The notes: generated by a model from the sequence alone, not told the origin. A stretch of DNA of 64,000 nt from Shigella phage vB_SdyM_006 (MK295204); one strand, 5' to 3'; counted from the stretch's first letter, positions 3,090 through 61,167 are shown. Made by a program: numbers and translations.

Positions 3090-3380
3090 TTATAAGTACT
3101 GTTTAATCAGTTCTTCGTTATTTTTAAAAAGAATAAAAATATTATCACGAACTTCAGTATCTGAGATATGCCATTTCATAGCATCAATTAAAATGTCTTT
3201 TGGGATCATATTATATAAATTATTTAGTAAAGCAATATTATTTATATCAATATCAACTTCAAATAATTCAAAAATACAACACGAAATAGAATCATAAAAA
3301 TCTTTAATGTCTATTTCATACTTAGACAAATTATTTATAAATTCTGTTTTAGCTTGTTCTGGATTATGTGCTTTAAACAT
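3090..3380 (-). CDS. hypothetical protein
   Basis: ORF in track, same strand as neighbours, no recognisable motif. Confidence 0.45.
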   Translation of the reverse strand: MFKAHNPEQAKTEFINNLSKYEIDIKDFYDSISCCIFELFEVDIDINNIALLNNLYNMIPKDILIDAMKWHISDTEVRDNIFILFKNNEELIKQYL

Positions 3381-3402
3381 TTTTATTCCTATTATTCTAA
3401 AA

Positions 3403-3477
3403 TGGCAGGCTCTGTAGGAATCGAACCCACGTCTTCGGATTTGGAATCCGGTATTCTACCGACTGAACTAAGAACCT
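3403..3477 (-). tRNA. tRNA-Trp (anticodon CCA)
   Basis: Acceptor AGGTTCT/AGAGCCT, anticodon loop TTCCAAA, T-loop TTCGATT, CCA encoded. Confidence 0.75.
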
Positions 3478-3478
3478 T

Positions 3479-3562
3479 TGGCGGGCAGTGTAGGATTCGA
3501 ACCTACGTCGTCAAATGACACGGATTAACAGTCCGCTGCTTAATCCACTCAGCCAACTACCC
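3479..3562 (-). tRNA. tRNA with GUU (Asn) anticodon but type-II architecture (13-nt variable arm)
   Basis: Acceptor GGGTAGT/ACTGCCC, discriminator G, 3-bp D-stem, anticodon stem GCGGA/TCCGT with loop CTGTTAA, variable-arm hairpin GTCATTTGAC, CCA encoded. Confidence 0.6.
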
Positions 3563-3898
3563 AATAATTTTTGCATCTTCTGAATAACTAGAAATACTAC
3601 CCCATTCTGAAGTATTAAATGAAACTTTATTTCCGTTTTTGAACTCTATAACTATATTTATATTGTCAACAGAAATCTCATTATCAGATGATTCTCTTTC
3701 TGAGGTTTTTAAATATGTATCCATAGTTTCAATAGTCACTTCTTCTGTTTGAAGAAGAGGTGAATAGTACTCAGCTAAATAAACTTTATTTACAATATCA
3801 CCAAAAATAGTTTTAGCAATATCAGTTAATTTAGTTGTTTCTTTTAATAAATGTTTCATAATATGTCCTTCACATGGAGTAGAAATTAATAATAACAC
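3557..3898 (-). CDS. hypothetical protein
   Basis: ORF in track; 3' end abuts tRNA. Confidence 0.45.
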   Translation of the reverse strand: MLLLISTPCEGHIMKHLLKETTKLTDIAKTIFGDIVNKVYLAEYYSPLLQTEEVTIETMDTYLKTSERESSDNEISVDNINIVIEFKNGNKVSFNTSEWGSISSYSEDAKIIG

Positions 3899-3922
3899 AA
3901 ATAATATGAAAGCATTTCTGTT

Positions 3923-4279
3923 TTAATATTTGTGTTTTGTTTTTCTAACTAATGTAACCTGAAAAGGTGTTTCCATACAATATGTATGGACAACAGAATC
4001 TTTGTCACGATTATGATAATATGGATAATAAGCTACACGATAACCTTCACGCGTAAATCCTAATAGAACGCCAACACTTAGTCCTTTACCGCCACCTATA
4101 GATGAGTAAGAGACAATATCACCAGGACTAATATGATTACCGATCATATCGTGTTTAGGTGTCCCTTGCGTCAACTTGTGGTGCATTTCGTATAGTTCAG
4201 GGTCTGTCTTTAAAATTTCAGAAAAACCTAATTGGTTCTCTGCCTTAAACAGAGAAAAAGCTTCTTGAATTGTCATCAC
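3923..4279 (-). CDS. hypothetical protein
   Basis: ORF in track; a 43-codon upstream ORF (4276..4406) overlaps its start in an ATGA arrangement. Confidence 0.5.
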   Translation of the reverse strand: MMTIQEAFSLFKAENQLGFSEILKTDPELYEMHHKLTQGTPKHDMIGNHISPGDIVSYSSIGGGKGLSVGVLLGFTREGYRVAYYPYYHNRDKDSVVHTYCMETPFQVTLVRKTKHKY

Positions 4280-4416
4280 CAGCCCTCGTCTTCGCGTTCT
4301 TGATAATTATAATAAGTATCACGTTCTTCGCCGTTAGATTCTTTTTTGGATTGATTTTCAAAAAAACGTTGTAGTTCTCTTGCTTCTCGGATTTCTTTTT
4401 CTGTCATAGTATATCC

Positions 4417-4809: not shown

Positions 4810-5097
4810 TCACGAAATTGATTTTACAAAATTCGGAAAAAGATTTTTAATAATAAAAATATGGATTATTGCAGAAATACCTGCACCCATAATTAGCACT
4901 ACAAATCCTAAAATAAGCCCAGCCATCATAGCATATTGCATATCTTCAGGAACACTCATAGCCCGTTCGTATTCAGAAAAGAATTTCTTTTGGACTAACC
5001 AATCATAAATAAACCAAAAATATAACCCGCATGAGCTTCCTACTAAAGTCAGCCAATAAATAAACCCAACAAAATTTTTAGTGCTCTCATTTTTCAT
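4810..5097 (-). CDS. hypothetical membrane protein
   Basis: ORF in track; two or three hydrophobic helices. Confidence 0.5.
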   Translation of the reverse strand: MKNESTKNFVGFIYWLTLVGSSCGLYFWFIYDWLVQKKFFSEYERAMSVPEDMQYAMMAGLILGFVVLIMGAGISAIIHIFIIKNLFPNFVKSIS

Positions 5098-5129
5098 AAT
5101 CTATTTCTCACAATTTTTGTTAACGAAAC

Positions 5130-5342
5130 TTAATAACCAAGTTCTTCAATAAAACCATCTAAGGACCAATTGTATTTCATTTCTGATTTACTGTAAACAA
5201 ATATTTTAGAGTTTTCAATTTTATCATAATCTTCTGGATTAACGTTGTTTGATAATGGGCACACTAATTTTAAGCATTCAATATTAGATGCAAATCCAAC
5301 AAATAAAAAATCAAGGTCTTTTAAAGAATAGATTTTAATCAT
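5130..5342 (-). CDS. hypothetical protein
   Basis: ORF in track. Confidence 0.4.
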   Translation of the reverse strand: MIKIYSLKDLDFLFVGFASNIECLKLVCPLSNNVNPEDYDKIENSKIFVYSKSEMKYNWSLDGFIEELGY

Positions 5343-5774
5343 TTAACTAATCTGCTTCAAAGGTTGAGTGATAATAGGTTTATCAACAAAATACACTTTC
5401 ATTTCATCGAAAACACGAATAAAATCATAATCATATTGTACAGGCTCACCAAGAATAGTTTGTAAAGCTTTTAATAAATTACTACTTGGAAAATATTTGT
5501 CTACAAATTCTTGAGAAATTTTTGATTCTGAAAGTAATTTATCTAAATTTGTTCTAATACCATCTTCAATGTCATAAAAATCTTCATTACAAAGATCTTC
5601 GCCACCATGATAACTTGGCTTAAAGATCATAAGAACATTTGAGAACATAGTCACTTCTTCTAGAGTGAGGCCATCAAAATACTGGGTAGAAAAATCATCT
5701 GCGTCATTTTCCCAAGTAGTAACAGAAATTAAATATCCTGATTTAACATTTAAGCCATTAATTAATTCTTTCAT
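5343..5774 (-). CDS. hypothetical protein
   Basis: ORF in track, abuts the preceding ORF. Confidence 0.5.
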   Translation of the reverse strand: MKELINGLNVKSGYLISVTTWENDADDFSTQYFDGLTLEEVTMFSNVLMIFKPSYHGGEDLCNEDFYDIEDGIRTNLDKLLSESKISQEFVDKYFPSSNLLKALQTILGEPVQYDYDFIRVFDEMKVYFVDKPIITQPLKQIS

Positions 5775-5844
5775 TTTATATACCGTGTTGTTTAAAAGAA
5801 TTTAATCATATACAAGAATATTTTTATGCGATTAAAAACCAAAA

Positions 5845-5868
5845 AAGAGACCGAAGTCTCTTTTTAAT
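5845..5868. terminator. bidirectional intrinsic terminator (hairpin AGAGACCGAAGTCTCT with A-run and T-run flanks)
   Basis: GC-rich 6-bp stem, CGAA loop, flanking A/T tracts. Confidence 0.55.
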
Positions 5869-5882
5869 TAGTTAGTATGGTT

Positions 5883-6161
5883 TTATAAAGTGCTCTTTAA
5901 AGCCTTTTCTATATCTTTTGAATTAAGATTAACTTCTGTTTTGGCCACTATAGCTTTAGAAATATTAAATTTCTTAAATTTTGAAGAATTTAAAATAGTT
6001 TTTAAATCTTTAGCTTCTATGACATCTACAACGTCATTTTCGTTTTTACTTCCAATAATTACAGCACGATAGCCTTCAATTTCATCATATTTAGAAAATC
6101 TATATTGGAATTCTACACTAAAATCTTTAGATTCATTCAAAAATTCATCAAATGTTTTCAT
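5883..6161 (-). CDS. hypothetical protein
   Basis: ORF in track; preceded by a sigma70-like promoter. Confidence 0.5.
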   Translation of the reverse strand: MKTFDEFLNESKDFSVEFQYRFSKYDEIEGYRAVIIGSKNENDVVDVIEAKDLKTILNSSKFKKFNISKAIVAKTEVNLNSKDIEKALKSTL

Positions 6162-6191
6162 TTTTAATCTCTGGTGTTTAAATTTATAAGT

Positions 6192-6220
6192 ATTATATCA
6201 CAATTTTTATGATTGTAAAC
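6192..6220 (-). promoter_or_regulatory. sigma70-like (T4 early-type) promoter: -35 GTTTAC, 17-bp spacer, TGn-TATAAT
   Basis: Read on minus strand: GTTTAC-aatcataaaaattgtga-TATAAT. Confidence 0.5.
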
Positions 6221-6222
6221 TG

Positions 6223-6495
6223 TTATTTTAAATATTGGACCATTTTATCTACCATATCATCATCTCTGACATTAAACAAATAATCTACTTCTTTGCTATT
6301 TTTCAGTATTTGCCATTCACCTGCACGATGTCGAACAAAAGTATATGCTCCTGATTTGAATGAATCACTACTAATTTTTTTGACATGTTTTATCTTAAGG
6401 CCTTCAACCTCGGCCCATGCCACAATTTGTTGGGCTGGGGTTAATCCATAATTTTTACGCTTAACTTCTGTTATGAATTCATTAAATGTTTTCAT
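6223..6495 (-). CDS. hypothetical protein
   Basis: ORF in track; first 21 nt nearly identical to the start of ORF 5883..6161. Confidence 0.5.
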   Translation of the reverse strand: MKTFNEFITEVKRKNYGLTPAQQIVAWAEVEGLKIKHVKKISSDSFKSGAYTFVRHRAGEWQILKNSKEVDYLFNVRDDDMVDKMVQYLK

Positions 6496-6526
6496 TTTTC
6501 AATTATTCCTCTTTAGTGGTTTAAAC

Positions 6527-6555
6527 ATACTATCGTCTTAAATTACGTATGTAAA

Positions 6556-6556
<1 letters not shown>
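6527..6556 (-). promoter_or_regulatory. possible sigma70-like promoter (-35 GTTTAC, 18-bp spacer, -10 TAGTAT)
   Basis: Read on minus strand upstream of ORF 6223..6495. Confidence 0.35.
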
Positions 6557-7232
<676 letters not shown>

Positions 7233-7252
<20 letters not shown>

Positions 7253-7892
7253 GTTTTACCTTTTTTTGAAAAATTTCTAAAGAATCATTATTTTCAATAA
7301 CAATATCACCTTCTAAAATAGGGAGGTCTTGTTCAGTGATATGGTCATCATTTGTAATTGTATTTTTTTTAATATGGATAATTTTACCTTTATTGTTTCG
7401 AACAGTATCAATTTCATGTACTTGTCGACAATCAGTAATAATAACAACATGACTTCTAGGGATTAATTTATCAATGTAATTGAAAACCATATCTACCCAG
7501 TACATTTTATCCATGCTTACAACAATATCAGTTCCAAGGGTCTGTAGGAACTTTCGAATTGTAAATTCATTATTATTTATAATAGGGATTTCTGGTATAT
7601 CACCTTTAAGACCATGACTTTTTAAATATCGAATACAGCGAATCATATAATCTTCGAATTGTTCTTGTGTCATATTTAATTTATATTCGCGATCAATGCC
7701 ATGTCCGTCAAAGTCATCATAGGTCAATTCAAACCCATTATAGTTTTGCCAATTTATAGACAAAGTGAATTTTAGATAATCGGCAAAAGCCATAGTGTGT
7801 GAAGTAATATTATTTTCTTCACAAATATCTTCAATAAATTTAGCACATGTATCTTTTCCGGAACGTTTTTTACCGGTCAAACCAATAATCAT
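7233..7892 (-). CDS. 1: deoxynucleoside monophosphate kinase (gp1)
   Basis: P-loop GLTGKKRSGKDT at N-terminus; synteny 57A-1-3. Confidence 0.75.
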
Positions 7893-7894
7893 AA

Positions 7895-8473
7895 TTACCT
7901 CATAGAAGGATGTAAGTTTCTACCTATTGAAATAGCGGAGTCTTGAATAGACGGACGAGATACTATAATTTTATTATTTTTCTCTATTTCGAAATATTTA
8001 AAGTTAAATACAACAGTCATATAAACCGCTGGGTCACCTTCGTTATCATAACCATATTCTATATCAGATATAGAAGAAGGCCAAGCGCCATAATAGTTAA
8101 ATGATATTAAGGATTCTTTTTTATCATTATCTAATATATGTAATATCAGTCCTTCAGGTTGTCCAGATGGGTCCCAGGCGGTATTATTATGGGTGATATA
8201 GTTATTAATTGATAACATCCATTTGTATATCTCTACGTAAGAGAGGAGTTCCTCGTCTAATAAAACTTTAGCTACTAATTCTCCATGTTCAAGTGTAGAA
8301 CCTGGTAAATTAGATCTACCAAGTCCTTTTGTTCCTAAAGGAACTTCAGTAATAGGTATTCTAACATCAGGAAGTGTAAAGCTTTGGACATTTAATGTAA
8401 ACGCTTCAGTTAATTTACTATCTGGTATATCAATTCTAAAATTTGTAGAATTTGTTTGATTAAAAAAACTCAT
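7895..8473 (-). CDS. 3: tail completion / sheath stabiliser protein (gp3-like)
   Basis: Position between gene 1 and gene 2, size 192 aa. Confidence 0.6.
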   Translation of the reverse strand: MSFFNQTNSTNFRIDIPDSKLTEAFTLNVQSFTLPDVRIPITEVPLGTKGLGRSNLPGSTLEHGELVAKVLLDEELLSYVEIYKWMLSINNYITHNNTAWDPSGQPEGLILHILDNDKKESLISFNYYGAWPSSISDIEYGYDNEGDPAVYMTVVFNFKYFEIEKNNKIIVSRPSIQDSAISIGRNLHPSMR

Positions 8474-8490
8474 ATTAGTTTCCTTGTTTT

Positions 8491-8656
8491 ATTAATTTAT
8501 TAAAAGTATAGTATATTCTATATAACTATTAAGTAATAAATTAATAACTATATGTTACTATTTCTAAAGAAATCTGGAGCTGCGCTCCAGAATTTTTATT
8601 ATTTTATTAAGTTCTTTATATATTATATATAACTATTAAGTAATAAATTAATAACT
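8491..8656. repeat. copy A of a ~166-bp element: two 31-bp direct repeats (8519-8549, 8626-8656) flanking a GC hairpin CTGGAGC-TGC-GCTCCAG (8574-8590); inverted copy at 53705-53871
   Basis: Direct comparison: reverse complement of 53705-53871 matches 8491-8656 except for the 3-nt hairpin loop. Confidence 0.9.
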
Positions 8657-8664
8657 GTACGTTA

Positions 8665-9483
8665 TTATCTTTTCCAAACTTTAGAAGCTGCAAATCTTGA
8701 ACCTTGAGACATAAATTGCTGAGTAGGCATAAAAATAATATTAGACCAATCTTGTGGTTTAACTTCTATTATAGGGCCTTTAATATGTCCAGGTAAATAA
8801 GCTTTTATCATCTGATCAGAACCATGCATTCCTCTAACACTACTCCAATTAATTTTTAATTTAGTTTTAGAAGAAATGTTACTTGTAGAAGAAAATCTTT
8901 TTAATAGTTCTTCTAAAAATGCTTGTCTGGCTTTAGGTGGTATATAATGAAGATTTAATCCATATAATAATTGATTTCCGTTTCCAGCAGTTTTAGCACC
9001 TAAGAAAATGATCAATGGAAACTTATCCCAATACGGGAGAGTATCTTTATTTTTGGCATCATAAACATAAGTATAAATTTTACCGATTTCTGGTACTTTA
9101 GTTGTTTTTGTTCTTACACCAGTTTTTATAGTTTCTTTAAACCATTTTATAGATTTATTATTAACAGCTGCGCCTTCATTTCTTATTTTTTTCTTTAAAG
9201 TACTTCTAAAGTCATTTACAATTGCAAGTTCACGTTCTCTACGTGATAATTTATGTTTAGATTTACCTTTAATAGCTTCGACTTCTAATGCTTCTTTTAT
9301 TTTATCAGAATACCGACTCATTGCTGATGTGAATGTGCTATATTTTATTCCTTTATATTCAGCAAACTTTTTAGAAGACACAGTTCTTCTAACTTTAGCA
9401 AATTCAACACCTAATTTAATCCAATCTTGTGCTGTTTTAGGTAAAGACATTTCTTCTTCAATTTCAAATATCATCCTTTCCAC
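8665..9483 (-). CDS. 2: DNA end protector protein (gp2-like)
   Basis: Synteny 3-2-4, size 272 aa (T4 gp2 274 aa). Confidence 0.7.
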   Translation of the reverse strand: MERMIFEIEEEMSLPKTAQDWIKLGVEFAKVRRTVSSKKFAEYKGIKYSTFTSAMSRYSDKIKEALEVEAIKGKSKHKLSRRERELAIVNDFRSTLKKKIRNEGAAVNNKSIKWFKETIKTGVRTKTTKVPEIGKIYTYVYDAKNKDTLPYWDKFPLIIFLGAKTAGNGNQLLYGLNLHYIPPKARQAFLEELLKRFSSTSNISSKTKLKINWSSVRGMHGSDQMIKAYLPGHIKGPIIEVKPQDWSNIIFMPTQQFMSQGSRFAASKVWKR

Positions 9484-35938: not shown

Positions 35939-36361
35939 ATGATTATTGTAGAAGATGATTTCGACATCACATTAGAAAACATAGAATCTTTTTCTGAAGA
36001 AGCAAGTAAACAATTCGACCTTATAAAAGCGTTAGAAAAAACCGATATAAATAGAATTATAGAGAACATTGCTTCTAGTGGTGATTTTGGTACTGCGATT
36101 TGTATGGGCTCATTAAACGAAAATATGCCTTTAAACGAGTATATTGTTAAACATGTTTCTTCACGCGGTGAAGTTACAAGAACTAAAGATAGAAAAACTC
36201 GTGAACGAAATGCGTTTAAAACAACTGGTTTAAGTAAATCTAAACGTAGACAAATTGCAAGAAGAGCCGTAAAAACTAAACGCGCTAATCCTTCTATCCA
36301 AACACGTGCTCAAAGAAAACGTAAAAAAGCGATGAAGAGAAGAGAGGCCTTAGGGTTATGA
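35939..36361 (+). CDS. 68: prohead core protein gp68-like
   Basis: 140 aa (T4 141 aa), basic C-terminus, synteny. Confidence 0.6.
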
Positions 36362-36984
36362 GTGAAATACTTTTAATCGAAGACTGGGGATTACCAGGTG
36401 AAACCTTAAACGGAACACCCTTAATTGAATCTTCAGAATCAGACGGCGCTCTTTATATTGAAGGTATTTTTATGCAGGCTGAAGTCGTTAATAGAAATAA
36501 ACGACTTTATCCTAAAAAAATCCTAGAACAAGCCGTAAGTAAGTACATAAAAGAACAAGTTAATTCTAAACAGGCTTTAGGCGAATTAAACCACCCACCA
36601 AGAGCTTCAGTTGATCCGATGCAAGCAGCGATTTTAATAGAAAAATTGTGGTGGGAAGGCAATAACGTGTATGGGAGAGCTAGAGTCATTGAAGGCGATT
36701 ACGGCCCAGGCGATAAGCTTGCTGCTAATATACGAGCTGGATGGATTCCAGGTGTAAGTTCTCGTGGCCTTGGTTCTTTAAAATCTTCTGGTAAAGGATA
36801 TAACGTTGTTCAAGAAGGTTATAGATTAACAGTAGGTGTAGACGTTGTATGGGGTCCTTCAGCACCAGATGCTATGGTTACTCCAAAAAGAATTCAGGAA
36901 TCTGTAGATATTCCTAAAAATATGGAAAATAGTGCTGACAAGGCATTTTCTTTATTATCACAGCGCTTAAAACAAGCGTTATAA
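36358..36984 (+). CDS. 21: prohead core protease gp21
   Basis: 208 aa (T4 212 aa), synteny between 68 and 22. Confidence 0.75.
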
Positions 36985-37016: not shown

Positions 37017-37811
37017 ATGCTTAAAGAATTCTTAATTGAAGAAGCACAGAAAATCAATGATGTTTCTGTAGCTCTAGATGGCATTTTCGAATCAGTTGAA
37101 TTGTCTGATGATGTAAAAGCCCAATTCAGCACTGTTTTCGAAAACGCAGTAAAAACTAATGCTATCAAATTAGCAGAAACCCATATCAATGACTTAACTG
37201 AAAAAGCTGATCAAAAAGAACTAGAGATTAAAGAATCTGTTCAAGCTGCTATAGAAACAGAAATGACCGAAAACATTTCTAAATTTATGGACCATGTATC
37301 AGAACAGTGGTTAGAAGAAAATAAATTAGCTGTGACTAATGGTATTAAAGCCGATTTATTTGAATCTATGTTCCAAAGTATTAAAACCGTAGTTATTGAC
37401 CATAATGTTATTCTTCCTGAAGAATCTGTGGATGTAGTCAAAGAAATGGAAGAAGAACTGGAAGAAAGTAAATCTGAAGTTGCTTCATTATTCGATAAAA
37501 CTGTATCTTTGCAAGAAAAAGTAAACACTCTTGAAAAAGAAAAAATTATCAAAGAAGAAACTCAAAATTTGACTGAATCACAAAAAGAAAAAGTTGCTTC
37601 TTTAATTGAAGGACTTGCTTATGGTGATAAGTTCAAAGATAATTTAGAAGCTATTGTTTCTATGGTGTCTAAAACTAATGAAGAAAAAGCACCTATTTCT
37701 GAAGCTATAAATACTACTGATGAGAGCGGTATCAACTATACCCCAGAAAATCCTGTCGTAAAAAACGACCCAATGAGTGTTTATACAGCTGCGGCTAAAA
37801 AAATCAATTAA
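37017..37811 (+). CDS. 22: prohead core scaffold protein gp22
   Basis: 264 aa, acidic coiled-coil (T4 269 aa), synteny. Confidence 0.75.
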   Translation: MLKEFLIEEAQKINDVSVALDGIFESVELSDDVKAQFSTVFENAVKTNAIKLAETHINDLTEKADQKELEIKESVQAAIETEMTENISKFMDHVSEQWLEENKLAVTNGIKADLFESMFQSIKTVVIDHNVILPEESVDVVKEMEEELEESKSEVASLFDKTVSLQEKVNTLEKEKIIKEETQNLTESQKEKVASLIEGLAYGDKFKDNLEAIVSMVSKTNEEKAPISEAINTTDESGINYTPENPVVKNDPMSVYTAAAKKIN

Positions 37812-46200: not shown

Positions 46201-46229
46201 GTTTACTTTTGCTGTCATTATGATATTAT
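46201..46229 (+). promoter_or_regulatory. sigma70-like early-type promoter inside a repeated promoter-RBS-start cassette (-35 GTTTAC, 17 bp, TGa-TATTAT)
   Basis: Cassette tgtttacttttgctg...tattatatacatattgaaac...ggagtatattATG also occurs at 60771-60845 and 61096-61168 on the minus strand. Confidence 0.55.
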
Positions 46230-53318: not shown

Positions 53319-53697
53319 AATGAATGTTTTATATTCTGACTTAGACCCTAAAATGGAAAAAGGCTGGGATAAAGACCTGCATAAAGTCGTAGGAGATAGG
53401 GCTGTCAAAAATTCTATTCTAGGAATAATTAGTACTAGGAAAGGGTCTAGACCCTTTGACCCAGAATTTGGGTGTAATATAACAGACCAATTATTCGAAA
53501 ATATGAGTCCATTAATAGAAGACACTATAGAGCGATCTATAGTTTCGGCTATTAAAAATTATGAGCCAAGAGTACAAAGATTAAAAGTTTCTGTTACTGC
53601 ATTGTATGATTCAAATTCTATAGTTGTAGATATTATTTTTTCTATTGTAGATAATCCAGACACATTAGAACAGATAAAAGTTCAATTATCAAAATAG
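53311..53697 (+). CDS. 25: baseplate wedge protein gp25
   Basis: 128 aa (T4 132 aa); gpW/gp25-like pattern (ILGIISTRKGSRPFDPEFGC). Confidence 0.75.
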   Translation: MSKMNVLYSDLDPKMEKGWDKDLHKVVGDRAVKNSILGIISTRKGSRPFDPEFGCNITDQLFENMSPLIEDTIERSIVSAIKNYEPRVQRLKVSVTALYDSNSIVVDIIFSIVDNPDTLEQIKVQLSK

Positions 53698-53704
53698 TTT
53701 ACTA

Positions 53705-53871
53705 TAGTTATTAATTTATTACTTAATAGTTATATATAATATATAAAGAACTTAATAAAATAATAAAAATTCTGGAGCTGCGCTCCAGATTTCTTTAGAA
53801 ATAGTAACATATAGTTATTAATTTATTACTTAATAGTTATATAGAATATACTATACTTTTAATAAATTAAT
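53705..53871. repeat. copy B (inverted) of the ~166-bp element; hairpin CTGGAGC-TGC-GCTCCAG at 53771-53787
   Basis: Reverse complement identical to 8491-8656 apart from the 3-nt hairpin loop. Confidence 0.9.
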
Positions 53872-58419: not shown

Positions 58420-60483
58420 TTAAATAATAAATTTTTCTGGGACAAAAGTAAGATCAACAGCTGTTGATAATAATTCTAGCCCTTTTTGACTAATTTTACC
58501 AGTATTTTCTTTTAAGAATTCTTTAAACCCAATTTTTTCGATTTTTCCTTCAGATAAAAACTTATTTCCGTCAATAAGTTCGCTTTCATCTAGTAATTCT
58601 GGATCCACTACAGATGTTTCTACTAATATTGGTCTATTAAATTCTATATCACGAGCGTTTTCATAACCGTGGATAGAATGAATCTTAAGAGCTAAACCTC
58701 TAGGTAAAATCACCTCGCATTCACTAGAGTATTTTGACATATTACCAGGAATAATAACATTGACTTTATGTGCACCTTTAATAGTTATACCCATAGAAAT
58801 GTTAATATCTGTTTTCTTAGTTGCTTTCTTACCATTAACGGCTACACCAATATTTTTTGGTGTCATAACTGTTGATATAACATCATCGAATGTTTCGGAT
58901 TCAAAAGTTACTGTAGTCGCGTTAGGTTTAATATTATCAAGAACATCATTTCGTTCCCCAAAAATAATTGGAGCTAATGAAGTCGAAATATAATTAGGAA
59001 AATATAATGTTTTATTTTTAGCAGCTTTTTCTACGTCGGCATAAGGTAATTTTTGTGCTCTATATAAAATAGTTCCTTTTTCTAACTTGGTTCCTTTTTT
59101 GAAGGCCCCATCTAAGACAGGAATTTTGTTTTCATACACAGATTTTAAACTTTTATCTTTACCAAGCAAAAAGTCGTTCATTTCTTCATATCCACGTAAA
59201 GCATAATCTGTGATAACTTTTCGCTCTTCTTCTGTTAAATCCATTTCTGTTTCGGTTCTAAATAACTCTTCTAAAGGAGTATAGAAAACATTTCTGTTTA
59301 AAGCAGAGATACAGCCTCTTAAAGCTCTAGTCTTAGCCACATTATCGTCAGGTCCATATGTTTCTAAATCTTCGGCTATTTTTTTGTAAACATCCATAGC
59401 ATTATTAGAAGTTTTGAGCGCATTGTTAATTATCAATATATACGGTTTTGCTAATTTATATTTTTCTTCACTAGATAAATGATAAAAATTTTCAACACCA
59501 TACCCAGATATGCGTTCTAAAGAATCTAATAAAAATCTAGCTTCTAGATCTGATTCTTCTTCACTCACGGCCGAATTTATTTTATCTAAAAACACAGATT
59601 TAGATTCATCAATTTTATTAAGGACATTTTTATGAACTAATGCAATTTTTGTAGAATCACTTTGGACAATAGGAGGATTATCTTGTAGTTCAATATATTT
59701 TCTTCTTCCTTCTTCAGAATAATTTTCTAAGTCTTCTGGTTTAGAAACACCATACATTGCTGATAATAATTCACGTCTAGAAACTTTAGTTTTTGAAATG
59801 ACAGATCGTTCACTTCTTGTGTTTTCTTGTGCTGCAATACTTCCTGCAATGGCTTCTAATTTAGACACTTGCTTGCCAGTTTTGTCATTGATATACACAT
59901 CACCTACTTTAGAATCGACTTTAGTATATAAGTCAGAATCAATACCAGGAATCCCAGCGATGTCTTCTAAAGGTCTGTTTTTACGATATATTAAAACATA
60001 AGCATGTTTACCTGTAAATTGATACAAATCTTCTAAGACAACAAATTTACCACCAGTACGTTGCATAGCCAGACGTTTGATTATTCTTTGTAATGTCTTT
60101 TCTTGGCCTTTCATTTTTTTAGCAGGGAATCTAAATAAAACTGCGTCCATTTTAAGTTTTTTAACTTGTTCGTATACAGTGTCAAAAATAGTATTCAATG
60201 CCCCAATAGGGTCTGAGCCTAAACCATTTCTTAATTCTGCTGCATTACCATTTTTAGACAAACTCATCAAAAACACTTGAACAAATTTATCACCTTGCTT
60301 TACTGCTTTTAATGCATCGCCTTTAGATAAATAAGACACCATTCTAACTAAAAGATTGTCATTTCCAGGAACACTGACATTCCATAATTGAGGGACCTTA
60401 GCCCTTTTATTAAGATTAATAGCTTTATATTGAGCTATTTCTGAATCAAAAACCTCATTTAAATTAATTTCATTTAATTCCAT
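58420..60483 (-). CDS. alt: ADP-ribosyltransferase Alt-like (capsid-packaged RNA polymerase modifier)
   Basis: 687 aa (T4 Alt 682 aa); C-terminal ART triad in order R (YRAQKL), S-T-S (YISTSLAP), E-x-E (SECEVILP); late promoter upstream. Confidence 0.75.
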   Translation of the reverse strand: MELNEINLNEVFDSEIAQYKAINLNKRAKVPQLWNVSVPGNDNLLVRMVSYLSKGDALKAVKQGDKFVQVFLMSLSKNGNAAELRNGLGSDPIGALNTIFDTVYEQVKKLKMDAVLFRFPAKKMKGQEKTLQRIIKRLAMQRTGGKFVVLEDLYQFTGKHAYVLIYRKNRPLEDIAGIPGIDSDLYTKVDSKVGDVYINDKTGKQVSKLEAIAGSIAAQENTRSERSVISKTKVSRRELLSAMYGVSKPEDLENYSEEGRRKYIELQDNPPIVQSDSTKIALVHKNVLNKIDESKSVFLDKINSAVSEEESDLEARFLLDSLERISGYGVENFYHLSSEEKYKLAKPYILIINNALKTSNNAMDVYKKIAEDLETYGPDDNVAKTRALRGCISALNRNVFYTPLEELFRTETEMDLTEEERKVITDYALRGYEEMNDFLLGKDKSLKSVYENKIPVLDGAFKKGTKLEKGTILYRAQKLPYADVEKAAKNKTLYFPNYISTSLAPIIFGERNDVLDNIKPNATTVTFESETFDDVISTVMTPKNIGVAVNGKKATKKTDINISMGITIKGAHKVNVIIPGNMSKYSSECEVILPRGLALKIHSIHGYENARDIEFNRPILVETSVVDPELLDESELIDGNKFLSEGKIEKIGFKEFLKENTGKISQKGLELLSTAVDLTFVPEKFII

Positions 60484-60773: not shown

Positions 60774-60813
60774 AATATACTCCGTTGTTTCCGTGTGTTG
60801 TTTCAATATGTAT

Positions 60814-60842
60814 ATAATAACATGTCTACAGCAAAAGTAAAC
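60814..60842 (-). promoter_or_regulatory. sigma70-like early-type promoter, cassette copy 1 (-35 GTTTAC, 17 bp, TGt-TATTAT)
   Basis: Minus strand reads tgtttac-ttttgctgtagacatgt-tattat; identical core to the copy at 61136-61164. Confidence 0.55.
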
Positions 60843-60861
60843 ATGTTATTGTGGCTTTTTA

Positions 60862-61098: not shown

Positions 61099-61135
61099 TA
61101 TATACTCCATTTTCGTATGTTGTTTCAATATGTAT

Positions 61136-61164
61136 ATAATAACATGTCTACAGCAAAAGTAAAC
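61136..61164 (-). promoter_or_regulatory. sigma70-like early-type promoter, cassette copy 2
   Basis: Same sequence as copy 1. Confidence 0.55.
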
Positions 61165-61167
61165 AAA

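What the first reader, a model, noticed from the sequence alone, without database searches (positions are those of the whole stretch)
6131..6556. Two adjacent small genes share promoter architecture and first seven codons but not the rest
ORFs 5883..6161 and 6223..6495 both begin ATGAAAACATTT(G/A)ATGAATT (MKTF(D/N)EF). Each has its own -35 GTTTAC promoter and a TTTAAAC-containing leader, yet the downstream protein sequences are unrelated. This looks like a second family of expression cassettes that include the N-terminal codons, distinct from the triplicated cassette, and suggests cargo swapping behind a conserved initiation module.
Basis: seen in the sequence. Interest (0 to 1): 0.45.

Follow-up and report, generated by a model that had tools for sequence, protein, structure and literature searches.

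The report
T4-type injected internal-protein genes
The two small genes are tandem "internal protein" genes of a T4-like phage: their shared opening codons encode a known address tag that loads otherwise unrelated proteins into the phage head for injection into the host. This is a well-described arrangement, not a new kind of expression cassette.

Summary
Two minus-strand ORFs, 5883..6161 (A, 92 aa) and 6223..6495 (B, 90 aa), start with ATGAAAACATTT(G/A)ATGAATT. Each has its own GTTTAC -35 promoter, and the two proteins are unrelated after about residue 12.

The window is a T4-like Bragavirus, 93% identical to Proteus phage phiP4-3. Proteins A and B are 100% identical to those of Shigella phage vB_SdyM_006. 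The two genes lie directly downstream of 57B/Acb1, the position of ipI in T4.

The shared module is 10 residues, MKTF(D/N)EF(L/I)xE. That matches the T4 capsid targeting sequence (IPII/IPIII MKTYQEFIAE, IPI MKTFKEF...) and ends in the (L/I)xE site cut by the gp21 prohead protease. The window itself encodes gp21 and the gp22 scaffold.

Close relatives carry different cargo sets at this locus (B+A; A; B-pseudogene+C; C; B'+D+A'). The indel junctions fall at the -35 GTTTACA, and the A/C swap falls at the end of the targeting codons.

The promoter is the phage's generic early type. The "TTTAAAC leader" is not significant.

Cargo swapping is therefore real, but it was described in 1994 (Repoila et al.). 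The conserved codons are a protein-level packaging and processing tag, not an initiation module. Gene A is an unannotated new member of the family. The function of both cargos is unknown; an anti-defence role is inferred.

The parts
6527..6556 (-). T4-type early promoter of gene B (GTTTAC, 18-nt spacer, TAGTAT). Its first G is the last base of the 57B/Acb1 stop codon.
6466..6495 (-). Capsid targeting sequence codons of gene B: MKTFNEFITE, with predicted gp21 cleavage after E10 (I-T-E).
   Evidence: Compared with the T4 IPI/II/III N-termini. Roles of positions 4, 7, 8 and 10 from PMC9026906.
6223..6495 (-). Gene B: 90-aa internal-protein precursor. The predicted mature protein is 80 aa, 9.35 kDa, pI 9.6.
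   Evidence: phrog_8765 'internal virion protein', E 4.6e-39. The phiP4-3 ortholog is annotated 'internal virion protein'. Physico-chemical values. AF2 pLDDT 80.5.
6192..6220 (-). T4-type early promoter of gene A (GTTTAC, 17-nt spacer, TATAAT with upstream TG).
6132..6161 (-). Capsid targeting sequence codons of gene A: MKTFDEFLNE, with predicted gp21 cleavage after E10 (L-N-E). The first 36 nt are 100% identical to the start of the unrelated 173-aa gene C of Proteus phage PM2.
5883..6161 (-). Gene A: 92-aa internal-protein precursor, annotated 'hypothetical' in relatives. The predicted mature protein is 82 aa, 9.35 kDa, pI 8.8. It is an ORFan confined to Bragavirus-like phages.
5842..5865 (-). 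Intrinsic terminator hairpin (AAAAAGAGACTTCGGTCTCTTTTT followed by a T run) closing the A cassette. In phage SJ_PmiM the same hairpin, followed by GGTTTACA, flanks the A cassette on both sides.
6556..7017 (-). 57B/Acb1 anti-CBASS gene. This is the synteny anchor: in T4, ipI lies immediately downstream of 57B.
   Evidence: Pfam Acb1, E 1.2e-52; T4 gene map
36358..36984 (+). gp21 prohead core serine protease, the enzyme predicted to remove the 10-residue targeting peptides.
   Evidence: Pfam Peptidase_S77, E 3.8e-88; sequence
37017..37811 (+). gp22 scaffolding core protein, the structure that targeting-tagged proteins bind in T4.
   Evidence: Pfam T4_CASP, E 5e-80

Best explanation
Genes A and B are two tandem internal-protein (IP) genes in the ipI hyperplastic locus of a T4-like Bragavirus.

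Proposed mechanism:
1. Each gene is transcribed from its own T4-type early promoter.
2. Each encodes a ~10.5 kDa precursor whose first 10 residues, MKTF(D/N)EF(L/I)xE, are a capsid targeting sequence (CTS).
3. The tag directs the precursor into the gp22 scaffolding core of the assembling prohead.
4. The gp21 prohead protease cuts after Glu10 at the (L/I)-x-E site. This leaves a ~9.35 kDa basic mature protein in the head.
5. The mature protein is ejected into the host together with the DNA.
6. By analogy with T4 Ip1-3, which each inhibit a distinct GmrSD type IV restriction enzyme, the two unrelated cargos most likely neutralise different host defences against this phage's probably hypermodified DNA.

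Cargo diversity arises by recombination at short conserved sequences that bracket the cassettes: the -35 GTTTACA, the terminator hairpin, and the CTS codons.

Shown here: the sequence motifs, synteny, presence of protease and scaffold, unrelatedness of the cargos, and cassette swapping among relatives. Inferred: packaging, cleavage, injection and the anti-defence role.
For: Motif. The N-termini match T4 IPI (MKTFKEF...ITE|A) and IPII/IPIII (MKTYQEFIAE|A). The aromatic residues at positions 4 and 7 and the L/I and E at positions 8 and 10 are conserved. PMC9026906 reports these positions as determining targeting and processing.

Synteny. The gene order 4-2-3-1-57A-57B-IP is the same as in T4.

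Machinery. gp21, gp22, gp67 and gp23 are in the window. gp23 carries FLTE|AEVGG at the position of the known T4 gp23 cleavage site (the T4 site is recalled from general knowledge; window sequence).

Family hits. B is a full-length match to phrog_8765 'internal virion protein'. Both proteins give N-terminus-only hits to other IP PHROGs.

Mature proteins. Both are small and basic, like T4 IPI* and IPII*.

Locus contents in relatives:
- window and phiP4-3: B, A
- SJ_PmiM: A
- PM2: B pseudogene, then C
- Pm5461: C
- PSTCR6: B', D, A'
All of these proteins start with a CTS.

Junctions. Every indel junction lies at GTTTACA. The A/C swap junction lies at codon 12.

Wider survey. A capped IMG/VR scan for the start module found at least 120 loci. 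The 121 proteins of at least 45 aa fall into 68 unrelated cargo clusters. [LIVM]xE occupies positions 8-10 in 40%, against a 1.1% background.

Literature. The IPs share only the CTS (PMC3012670, PMC12373910). The IP loci are hyperplastic and carry promoter/stem-loop elements (PMC2839356, citing Repoila 1994). Bragaviruses carry cytosine-hypermodification genes (PMC13326640, PMC8056088).
Against: - There is no direct evidence of packaging, cleavage or injection for either protein. No virion proteomics for these phages was found.
- Neither mature protein resembles T4 Ip1, Ip2 or Ip3 or any solved structure. The anti-restriction role is therefore purely analogical.
- The two leaders in the window lack the strong promoter-embedded stem-loops seen at T4 ipI/ipII and PM2 gene C (z -0.02 and -0.61, against -2.7 to -6.3).
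- Only early-type promoters are evident, although the proteins are needed during late prohead assembly. This is also the case at the T4 ip genes inspected here.
Confidence: 0.85

Rival explanations
1. The two genes are ordinary tandem paralogues that have diverged beyond recognition except at the N-terminus.
For: The genes are adjacent, in the same orientation and almost the same length (92 and 90 aa), and the mature proteins have similar pI. BLASTP extends weakly to residue 32, including a shared E(I/V)EG.
Against: - DNA identity falls abruptly from 90% to a random 25-28% after codon 10.
- hhalign probability is 9%, over the N-terminus only.
- The AF2 models have different topologies: A is beta-beta-beta-alpha-beta-beta-alpha, B is alpha-alpha-beta5-alpha.
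- The two proteins fall in different PHROGs.
- The same CTS also precedes the unrelated cargos C and D in relatives.
Confidence: 0.05
2. The conserved first codons are a nucleic-acid-level expression module, for example a translation-initiation enhancer carried along with the promoter. On this view the encoded peptide has no function.
For: The DNA of the first 20 nt is nearly identical between the genes. The A-rich codons after the ATG (AAA ACA) are of a type known to favour initiation. The exact DNA word recurs at ORF starts on at least 120 viral contigs.
Against: - Only 2 ORFs in 64 kb use the module, although the window has 9 promoters of this type.
- Conservation follows the amino acids. 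Position 8 is L or I with six different codons among the cassettes compared, and E10 and the aromatics at 4 and 7 are conserved, while positions 5 and 9 vary freely.
- Variants such as MKSFKEFITE and MNFKEFLNE keep the peptide pattern with different DNA.
- The 8-10 [LIVM]xE motif lies outside the searched DNA word yet is about 36-fold enriched.
- In T4 the 10 residues alone suffice to package foreign proteins (PMC9026906).
Confidence: 0.07
3. The match is chance or compositional: two short AT-rich ORFs in a 32% GC genome happen to start alike, and one or both are not real genes.
For: The genome is AT-rich. Protein A has essentially no homologues outside its own 50%-identity cluster.
Against: - Only 3 of 100 shuffles give at least 2 matches, even with 3 mismatches allowed.
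- Both ORFs are conserved at 74-100% identity as intact ORFs in several phages.
- Both have a promoter, and A is followed by a terminator.
- Both fold with pLDDT around 80.
Confidence: 0.01

Closest known systems
T4 internal protein I (ipI, precursor of IPI*)
   Same: Same genomic position immediately downstream of 57B. Same start, ATGAAAACATTT.A.GAATT / MKTFxEF. Its own GTTTAC early promoter begins soon after the upstream stop codon. Small basic mature protein.
   Different: The T4 IPI propeptide is 19 residues (cut at ITE|A), whereas A and B have the (L/I)xE site at residues 8-10, as in IPII/IPIII. The mature sequences are unrelated. IPI* did not appear among the Foldseek PDB hits for either model. 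T4's ipI promoter contains a 10-bp stem-loop across the -10 that the window's promoters lack.
T4 internal proteins II and III (ipII, ipIII) and the 10-residue capsid targeting sequence MKTYQEFIAE
   Same: A 10-residue tag with an aromatic residue at positions 4 and 7, I/L at 8 and E at 10, followed by unrelated cargo. The tag is experimentally sufficient for packaging and gp21 processing in T4 (PMC9026906).
   Different: Position 4 is F rather than Y, and positions 5 and 9 differ. ipII and ipIII lie in the other T4 IP locus, between e and denV. Ip2 and Ip3 are now known GmrSD inhibitors (PMC12373910), whereas no target is known for A or B.
IP hyperplastic regions and PeSL (early promoter + stem-loop) shuffling cassettes of T4-type phages (Repoila et al. 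1994; Arbiol et al. 2010, PMC2839356; Comeau et al. 2014, PMC4122927)
   Same: Non-essential ORFans each carry their own early promoter. Presence, absence and replacement polymorphism among close relatives has junctions inside the promoter element. In SJ_PmiM a hairpin + GGTTTACA repeat flanks the A cassette on both sides.
   Different: In the window the two promoters themselves have no significant stem-loop; the hairpin is a separate terminator downstream of A. A second recombination or selection boundary exists at the 3' end of the CTS, a protein-coding feature that generic PeSL cassettes lack.

Membership tests
T4-type internal proteins (CTS-bearing, head-packaged) | N-terminal capsid targeting sequence resembling MKT(Y/F)xEF(I/L)xE | tested here: met
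   A is MKTFDEFLNE and B is MKTFNEFITE, against T4 MKTYQEFIAE (IPII/III) and MKTFKEF (IPI).
T4-type internal proteins (CTS-bearing, head-packaged) | gp21 processing determinants: hydrophobic L/I at position 8 and Glu at position 10, plus targeting determinants at positions 4 and 7 | tested here: met
   F4, F7, L8/I8 and E10 are present in both proteins. The roles of these positions come from PMC9026906. This is a sequence-level test only.
T4-type internal proteins (CTS-bearing, head-packaged) | The phage encodes the gp21 prohead protease and the gp22/gp67 scaffolding core | tested here: met
   Peptidase_S77 E 3.8e-88, T4_CASP E 5e-80, GP67 E 1.1e-16, all within the window.
T4-type internal proteins (CTS-bearing, head-packaged) | Location in one of the two variable IP loci (downstream of 57B, or between e and denV) | tested here: met
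   The genes lie directly downstream of 57B/Acb1, in the same gene order as T4.
T4-type internal proteins (CTS-bearing, head-packaged) | Membership of a family already named as an internal virion protein | tested here: inconclusive
   B matches phrog_8765 'internal virion protein' (E 4.6e-39), and its phiP4-3 ortholog is annotated that way. A matches phrog_31819 'unknown function'; only its N-terminal 24 residues hit an IP PHROG.
T4-type internal proteins (CTS-bearing, head-packaged) | Physical presence in the virion, removal of the propeptide, and ejection into the host | not testable with these tools
   No virion proteomics for Bragavirus phages was found in the library.
PeSL / IP-associated promoter-stem-loop shuffling cassettes | Strong early promoter immediately upstream of each ORFan | tested here: met
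   GTTTAC-N17-TATAAT upstream of A and GTTTAC-N18-TAGTAT upstream of B.
PeSL / IP-associated promoter-stem-loop shuffling cassettes | Stable stem-loop embedded in or adjoining the promoter | tested here: not met
   The two window leaders fold no better than shuffles (z -0.02 and -0.61). PM2-C, T4 ipI and T4 ipII give z -5.2, -2.7 and -6.3. A hairpin exists only as the terminator downstream of A. The hairpin + GGTTTACA composite is seen in SJ_PmiM.
PeSL / IP-associated promoter-stem-loop shuffling cassettes | Insertion, deletion and replacement junctions between related genomes coincide with the element | tested here: met
   To the left of GTTTACA the sequence follows the upstream gene; to the right it follows the cassette. 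Five different combinations were observed. blastn breakpoints are at window 6220, 6556 and 6126.
GmrSD (type IV restriction) inhibitors Ip1/Ip2/Ip3 | Sequence or fold similarity of the mature protein to Ip1*, Ip2 or Ip3 | tested here: not met
   Ip2, Ip3 and the relatives' cargos C and D match the window only over their CTS, and Ip1 gives no match at E <= 10. All are separate cargo clusters. There are no significant PDB fold hits.
GmrSD (type IV restriction) inhibitors Ip1/Ip2/Ip3 | Inhibition of a cognate host nuclease | not testable with these tools
   This requires plaque assays or biochemistry.

The most novel reading that the evidence does not exclude
A and B are injected inhibitors of host defences that have not yet been described. 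One candidate class is type IV nucleases of Proteus or Shigella that recognise the arabinosyl-type hypermodified cytosine these phages probably carry. Both proteins would have folds without solved relatives. The CTS start word would then be a practical handle for mining dozens of unrelated injected anti-defence effectors from environmental T4-like phages: 68 cargo clusters appeared in a capped sample of 120 IMG/VR loci.
Probability: 0.4. Interest if true: 0.5.

Novelty: new member of a known kind. Interest (0 to 1): 0.22.

Why it matters
The architecture itself is textbook T4 biology, so it does not open a new question.

Its practical value is in annotation and discovery. Gene A is labelled 'hypothetical' in every relative, yet the evidence here identifies it as a head-packaged, injected protein. 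Internal proteins are the first phage proteins to meet host immunity, and all three T4 examples turned out to be specific inhibitors of type IV restriction enzymes (PMC12373910). A and B are therefore good candidates for new anti-defence proteins against Proteus, Providencia or Shigella systems.

The locus also gives a clean natural example of cassette exchange, with junctions resolved to a 7-nt promoter core and to the end of the targeting tag.

Tried and rejected
- Pfam and NCBIfam gave nothing meaningful for A or B. The Trans_coact hit (E 0.11) and the MrpA hit (E 0.009) are far below the curated cut-offs.
- A PDB sequence search for B and Foldseek PDB searches for both models gave no match at E <= 0.001. 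The weak RNase H-like and GH31 fragment hits were disregarded.
- The BFVD search for B found only uncharacterised phage proteins. The best was Pectobacterium phage PM2, 167 aa, 39% identity.
- An exhaustive profile search with A against 1.84 billion representatives returned only A's own cluster. No origin or function could be inferred.
- I tested whether the two leaders share more than the promoter hexamers. They do not.
- I tested whether TTTAAAC is a conserved element. It is not: 40 copies in the window, variable position, and absent from homologous cassettes.
- I tested for PeSL-type stem-loops in the two promoters. They are not significant.
- I looked for further CTS ORFs in the window and found none. 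I also looked for the 127-aa CTS gene of relatives and it is absent.
- Repoila 1994 and Rifat 2008 could not be read because they are not held. Their content is cited only through papers that were read.

Full report
**What is there**

On the minus strand, ORF A (5883..6161, 92 aa) and ORF B (6223..6495, 90 aa) begin with ATGAAAACATTTGATGAATT and ATGAAAACATTTAATGAATT. These are the only two matches to that 20-mer in the 64-kb window, even with three mismatches allowed, against 0.23 expected. An independent repeat finder returns the pair as 6127-6165 / 6461-6499.

Each ORF is preceded by GTTTAC-N17/18-TAnnAT. A's promoter is GTTTAC-17-TATAAT with an upstream TG (11/12 to consensus). B's is GTTTAC-18-TAGTAT. 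A is followed by a strong terminator hairpin at 5865-5842.

The proteins share MKTF(D/N)EF(L/I)xE and then diverge.
- BLASTP aligns residues 1-32 only.
- Profile-profile probability is 9%.
- Ungapped DNA identity is 90% for nt 1-21, 56% for nt 22-30 and 25-28% afterwards.
- AlphaFold models (pLDDT 81 and 80.5) have different topologies: beta3-alpha-beta2-alpha for A and alpha2-beta5-alpha for B.

**Context**

The window is a T4-like phage.
- Positions 5000-9000 are 93% identical to Proteus phage phiP4-3 (Bragavirus).
- A and B are 100% identical to proteins 128 and 129 of Shigella phage vB_SdyM_006.
- Immediately upstream of B lie 57B (Pfam Acb1, E 1.2e-52), then 57A, gene 1 (dNMP kinase), and genes 3, 2 and 4. 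In T4 the gene immediately downstream of 57B is ipI.
- T4 IPI starts MKTFKEFTSTTTPVSTITE|A, encoded by ATGAAAACATTTAAAGAATTT. T4 IPII and IPIII both start MKTYQEFIAE|A.

The shared start is therefore the T4 capsid targeting sequence (CTS). According to the review PMC9026906:
- The IP propeptides are 10-19 residues long.
- The first 10 residues of IPIII suffice for incorporation into the head.
- Targeting depends mainly on residues 4 and 7.
- Processing depends on residues 8 and 10.
- gp21 removes the propeptide.

A and B have F4, F7, L8/I8 and E10. The window also encodes the machinery: gp21 (Peptidase_S77, E 3.8e-88), gp22 scaffold, gp67 and gp23. gp23 carries FLTE|AEVGG at the position of the known T4 cleavage site; the window sequence is and the T4 site is my own recollection. 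The predicted mature proteins are 82 and 80 aa, about 9.35 kDa, with pI 8.8 and 9.6, similar to T4 IPI* and IPII*.

B is a full-length member of phrog_8765 'internal virion protein' (E 4.6e-39), and its phiP4-3 ortholog is annotated that way. A falls in phrog_31819 (unknown function) and is 'hypothetical' everywhere.

**Cargo swapping is real and can be seen in close relatives**

The table lists what lies downstream of 57B in each phage.

| Phage | Genes downstream of 57B |
|---|---|
| window, phiP4-3 | B, A |
| SJ_PmiM | A only |
| PM2 | B with a TGG->TGA stop at codon 27, then C |
| Pm5461 | C only |
| Providencia phage PSTCR6 | B', D, A' |

- C is an unrelated 173-aa protein starting MKTFDEFLNESK, identical to A's first 12 codons at the DNA level.
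- B' starts MKTFEEFLSE.
- D is an unrelated 124-aa protein starting MKTFEEFLNKSSITE.
- A' is an A homologue starting MNFKEFLNE.

Aligning the upstream regions shows where the joints are. Everything to the left of the -35 core GTTTACA follows the upstream neighbour (the end of 57B, the end of B, or a terminator). Everything to the right follows the cassette (leader type 1 with A, type 2 with B, type 3 with C/D). Five left/right combinations occur.

blastn breakpoints agree. SJ_PmiM lacks exactly 6221-6556. The PM2 match stops at 6126, which is codon 12 of A. In SJ_PmiM the A cassette is flanked on both sides by ATAAAGAGACTTyGGTCTCTTTTT(T)GGTTTACA, a terminator hairpin followed by the -35.

This is the behaviour described for the IP loci by Repoila et al. 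1994 and generalised as PeSL cassettes (PMC2839356). That paper states that PeSL-like elements based on T4 early promoters flank the two highly variable IP loci, and that more than 30 IP variants are known.

**What is not special**

- The GTTTAC promoter is the phage's general early promoter: 9 occurrences in the window against 1.3 expected, at unrelated genes.
- The two leaders are not significantly similar: 105 of 1000 shuffles score as well.
- TTTAAAC occurs 40 times in the window and sits at different distances from the -10 and the ATG. It is missing from the leaders of C, D and the T4 ip genes.
- The window's two promoters lack the strong stem-loops present at PM2-C, T4 ipI and T4 ipII.

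**Peptide-level versus DNA-level conservation**

- Among the cassettes compared, position 8 is L or I encoded by six different codons, while positions 5 and 9 vary freely.
- Variants such as MKSFKEFITE and MNFKEFLNE keep the pattern with different DNA.
The ORFs are almost always true starts: 113 of 122 have no upstream in-frame ATG.
- The 121 proteins of at least 45 aa, including the reference IPs, fall into 68 cargo clusters.
- [LIVM]xE lies outside the searched word. It occupies positions 8-10 in 45 of 113 proteins, against a per-position background of 1.1%. It occurs within residues 8-25 in 83 of 113.
- 51 of the 120 fragments carry at least one T4-like gene.

The module therefore behaves as a protein tag with a protease site, not as an initiation element.

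**Function of the cargos**

Nothing informative came from Pfam, NCBIfam, PDB sequence search or Foldseek against the PDB. A is an ORFan, with one cluster among 1.84 billion representatives. B has uncharacterised relatives in other T4-like phages; the best is a 167-aa protein of Pectobacterium phage PM2 at 39% identity.

By analogy, T4 Ip1, Ip2 and Ip3 each inhibit a distinct GmrSD type IV restriction enzyme and share only the leader (PMC12373910). Bragaviruses carry genes for cytosine hypermodification (PMC13326640; PMC8056088). The neighbouring gene is the anti-CBASS nuclease Acb1. On those grounds I infer that A and B are injected anti-defence proteins with different targets. This step is inference only.

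**Verdict**

The finding is real and well explained. It is a known kind of system (T4 internal-protein genes with a capsid targeting sequence, in a hyperplastic locus). B is already annotated as such in a relative. A is a new, unannotated member. Interest is low to moderate.

Noticed in passing
L005 (Proteus phage PM2) 4290-4370, orthologous to window 6223-6495: PM2's copy of gene B carries TGG->TGA at codon 27 and is unannotated. This looks like an internal-protein pseudogene left in place next to a different cargo, gene C.
   Followed up: partly
L001 (phiP4-3) 848-1231; the corresponding window region is about 3094-3934: A third CTS gene (127 aa, MKSFKEFITE|SVLTE...) sits near the tRNA cluster in phiP4-3, PM2, Pm5461 and SJ_PmiM. 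In phiP4-3 it is annotated only as a 42-aa fragment. It is absent from the window. The window instead has different sequence there, including tRNA-Trp and tRNA-Asn at 3403-3562.
   Followed up: partly
window 6556-7017 (-): The gene annotated 'RNA ligase' (57B) in RefSeq relatives is a clear Acb1 anti-CBASS protein (Pfam E 1.2e-52). The IP genes therefore sit next to a known anti-defence gene.
   Followed up: partly
window 60788-60843 and 61110-61165 (-); related promoter at 46201-46229 (+): A 56-nt promoter/leader segment is duplicated at 96% identity 322 nt apart, upstream of small ORFs next to the Alt-like ADP-ribosyltransferase gene. Both copies contain GTTTACTTTTGCTGTAGACATGTTATTAT, and a third, similar promoter lies at about 46.2 kb.
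   Followed up: no
window 8473-8668 and 53692-53871: AT-rich ~75-nt repeats occur as tandem pairs spaced 107 nt apart in two distant intergenic regions. One pair lies between genes 3 and 2. Their function is unknown.
   Followed up: no
L007 (SJ_PmiM) 3950-3990 and 4320-4350: The A cassette is bracketed by direct repeats of a terminator hairpin followed by GGTTTACA. This is the configuration proposed to allow excision as a mini-circle in PeSL shuffling.
   Followed up: partly
window 6181-6188 (-): TATAAATT lies between the -10 and the ribosome-binding site of gene A. It is one mismatch from the T4 late-promoter consensus TATAAATA (consensus from my own knowledge). It might provide late expression for a protein needed at prohead assembly. 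B has no equivalent.
   Followed up: no
window 58420-60483 (-): The Alt-like ADP-ribosyltransferase (687 aa) starts MELNEINLNE. This is a different N-terminus from the IP tag but also ends in L-x-E near residue 10, consistent with gp21 processing of Alt as in T4.
   Followed up: no
IMG/VR loci L022, L031, L043, L047, L116: A cluster of 150-181-aa proteins starts MKTFQEFIAE|AKRLKF..YHGT, which differs from the T4 IPII/III tag MKTYQEFIAE only at residue 4 (F for Y). It is one of many uncharacterised cargo families behind the tag in environmental phages.
   Followed up: no
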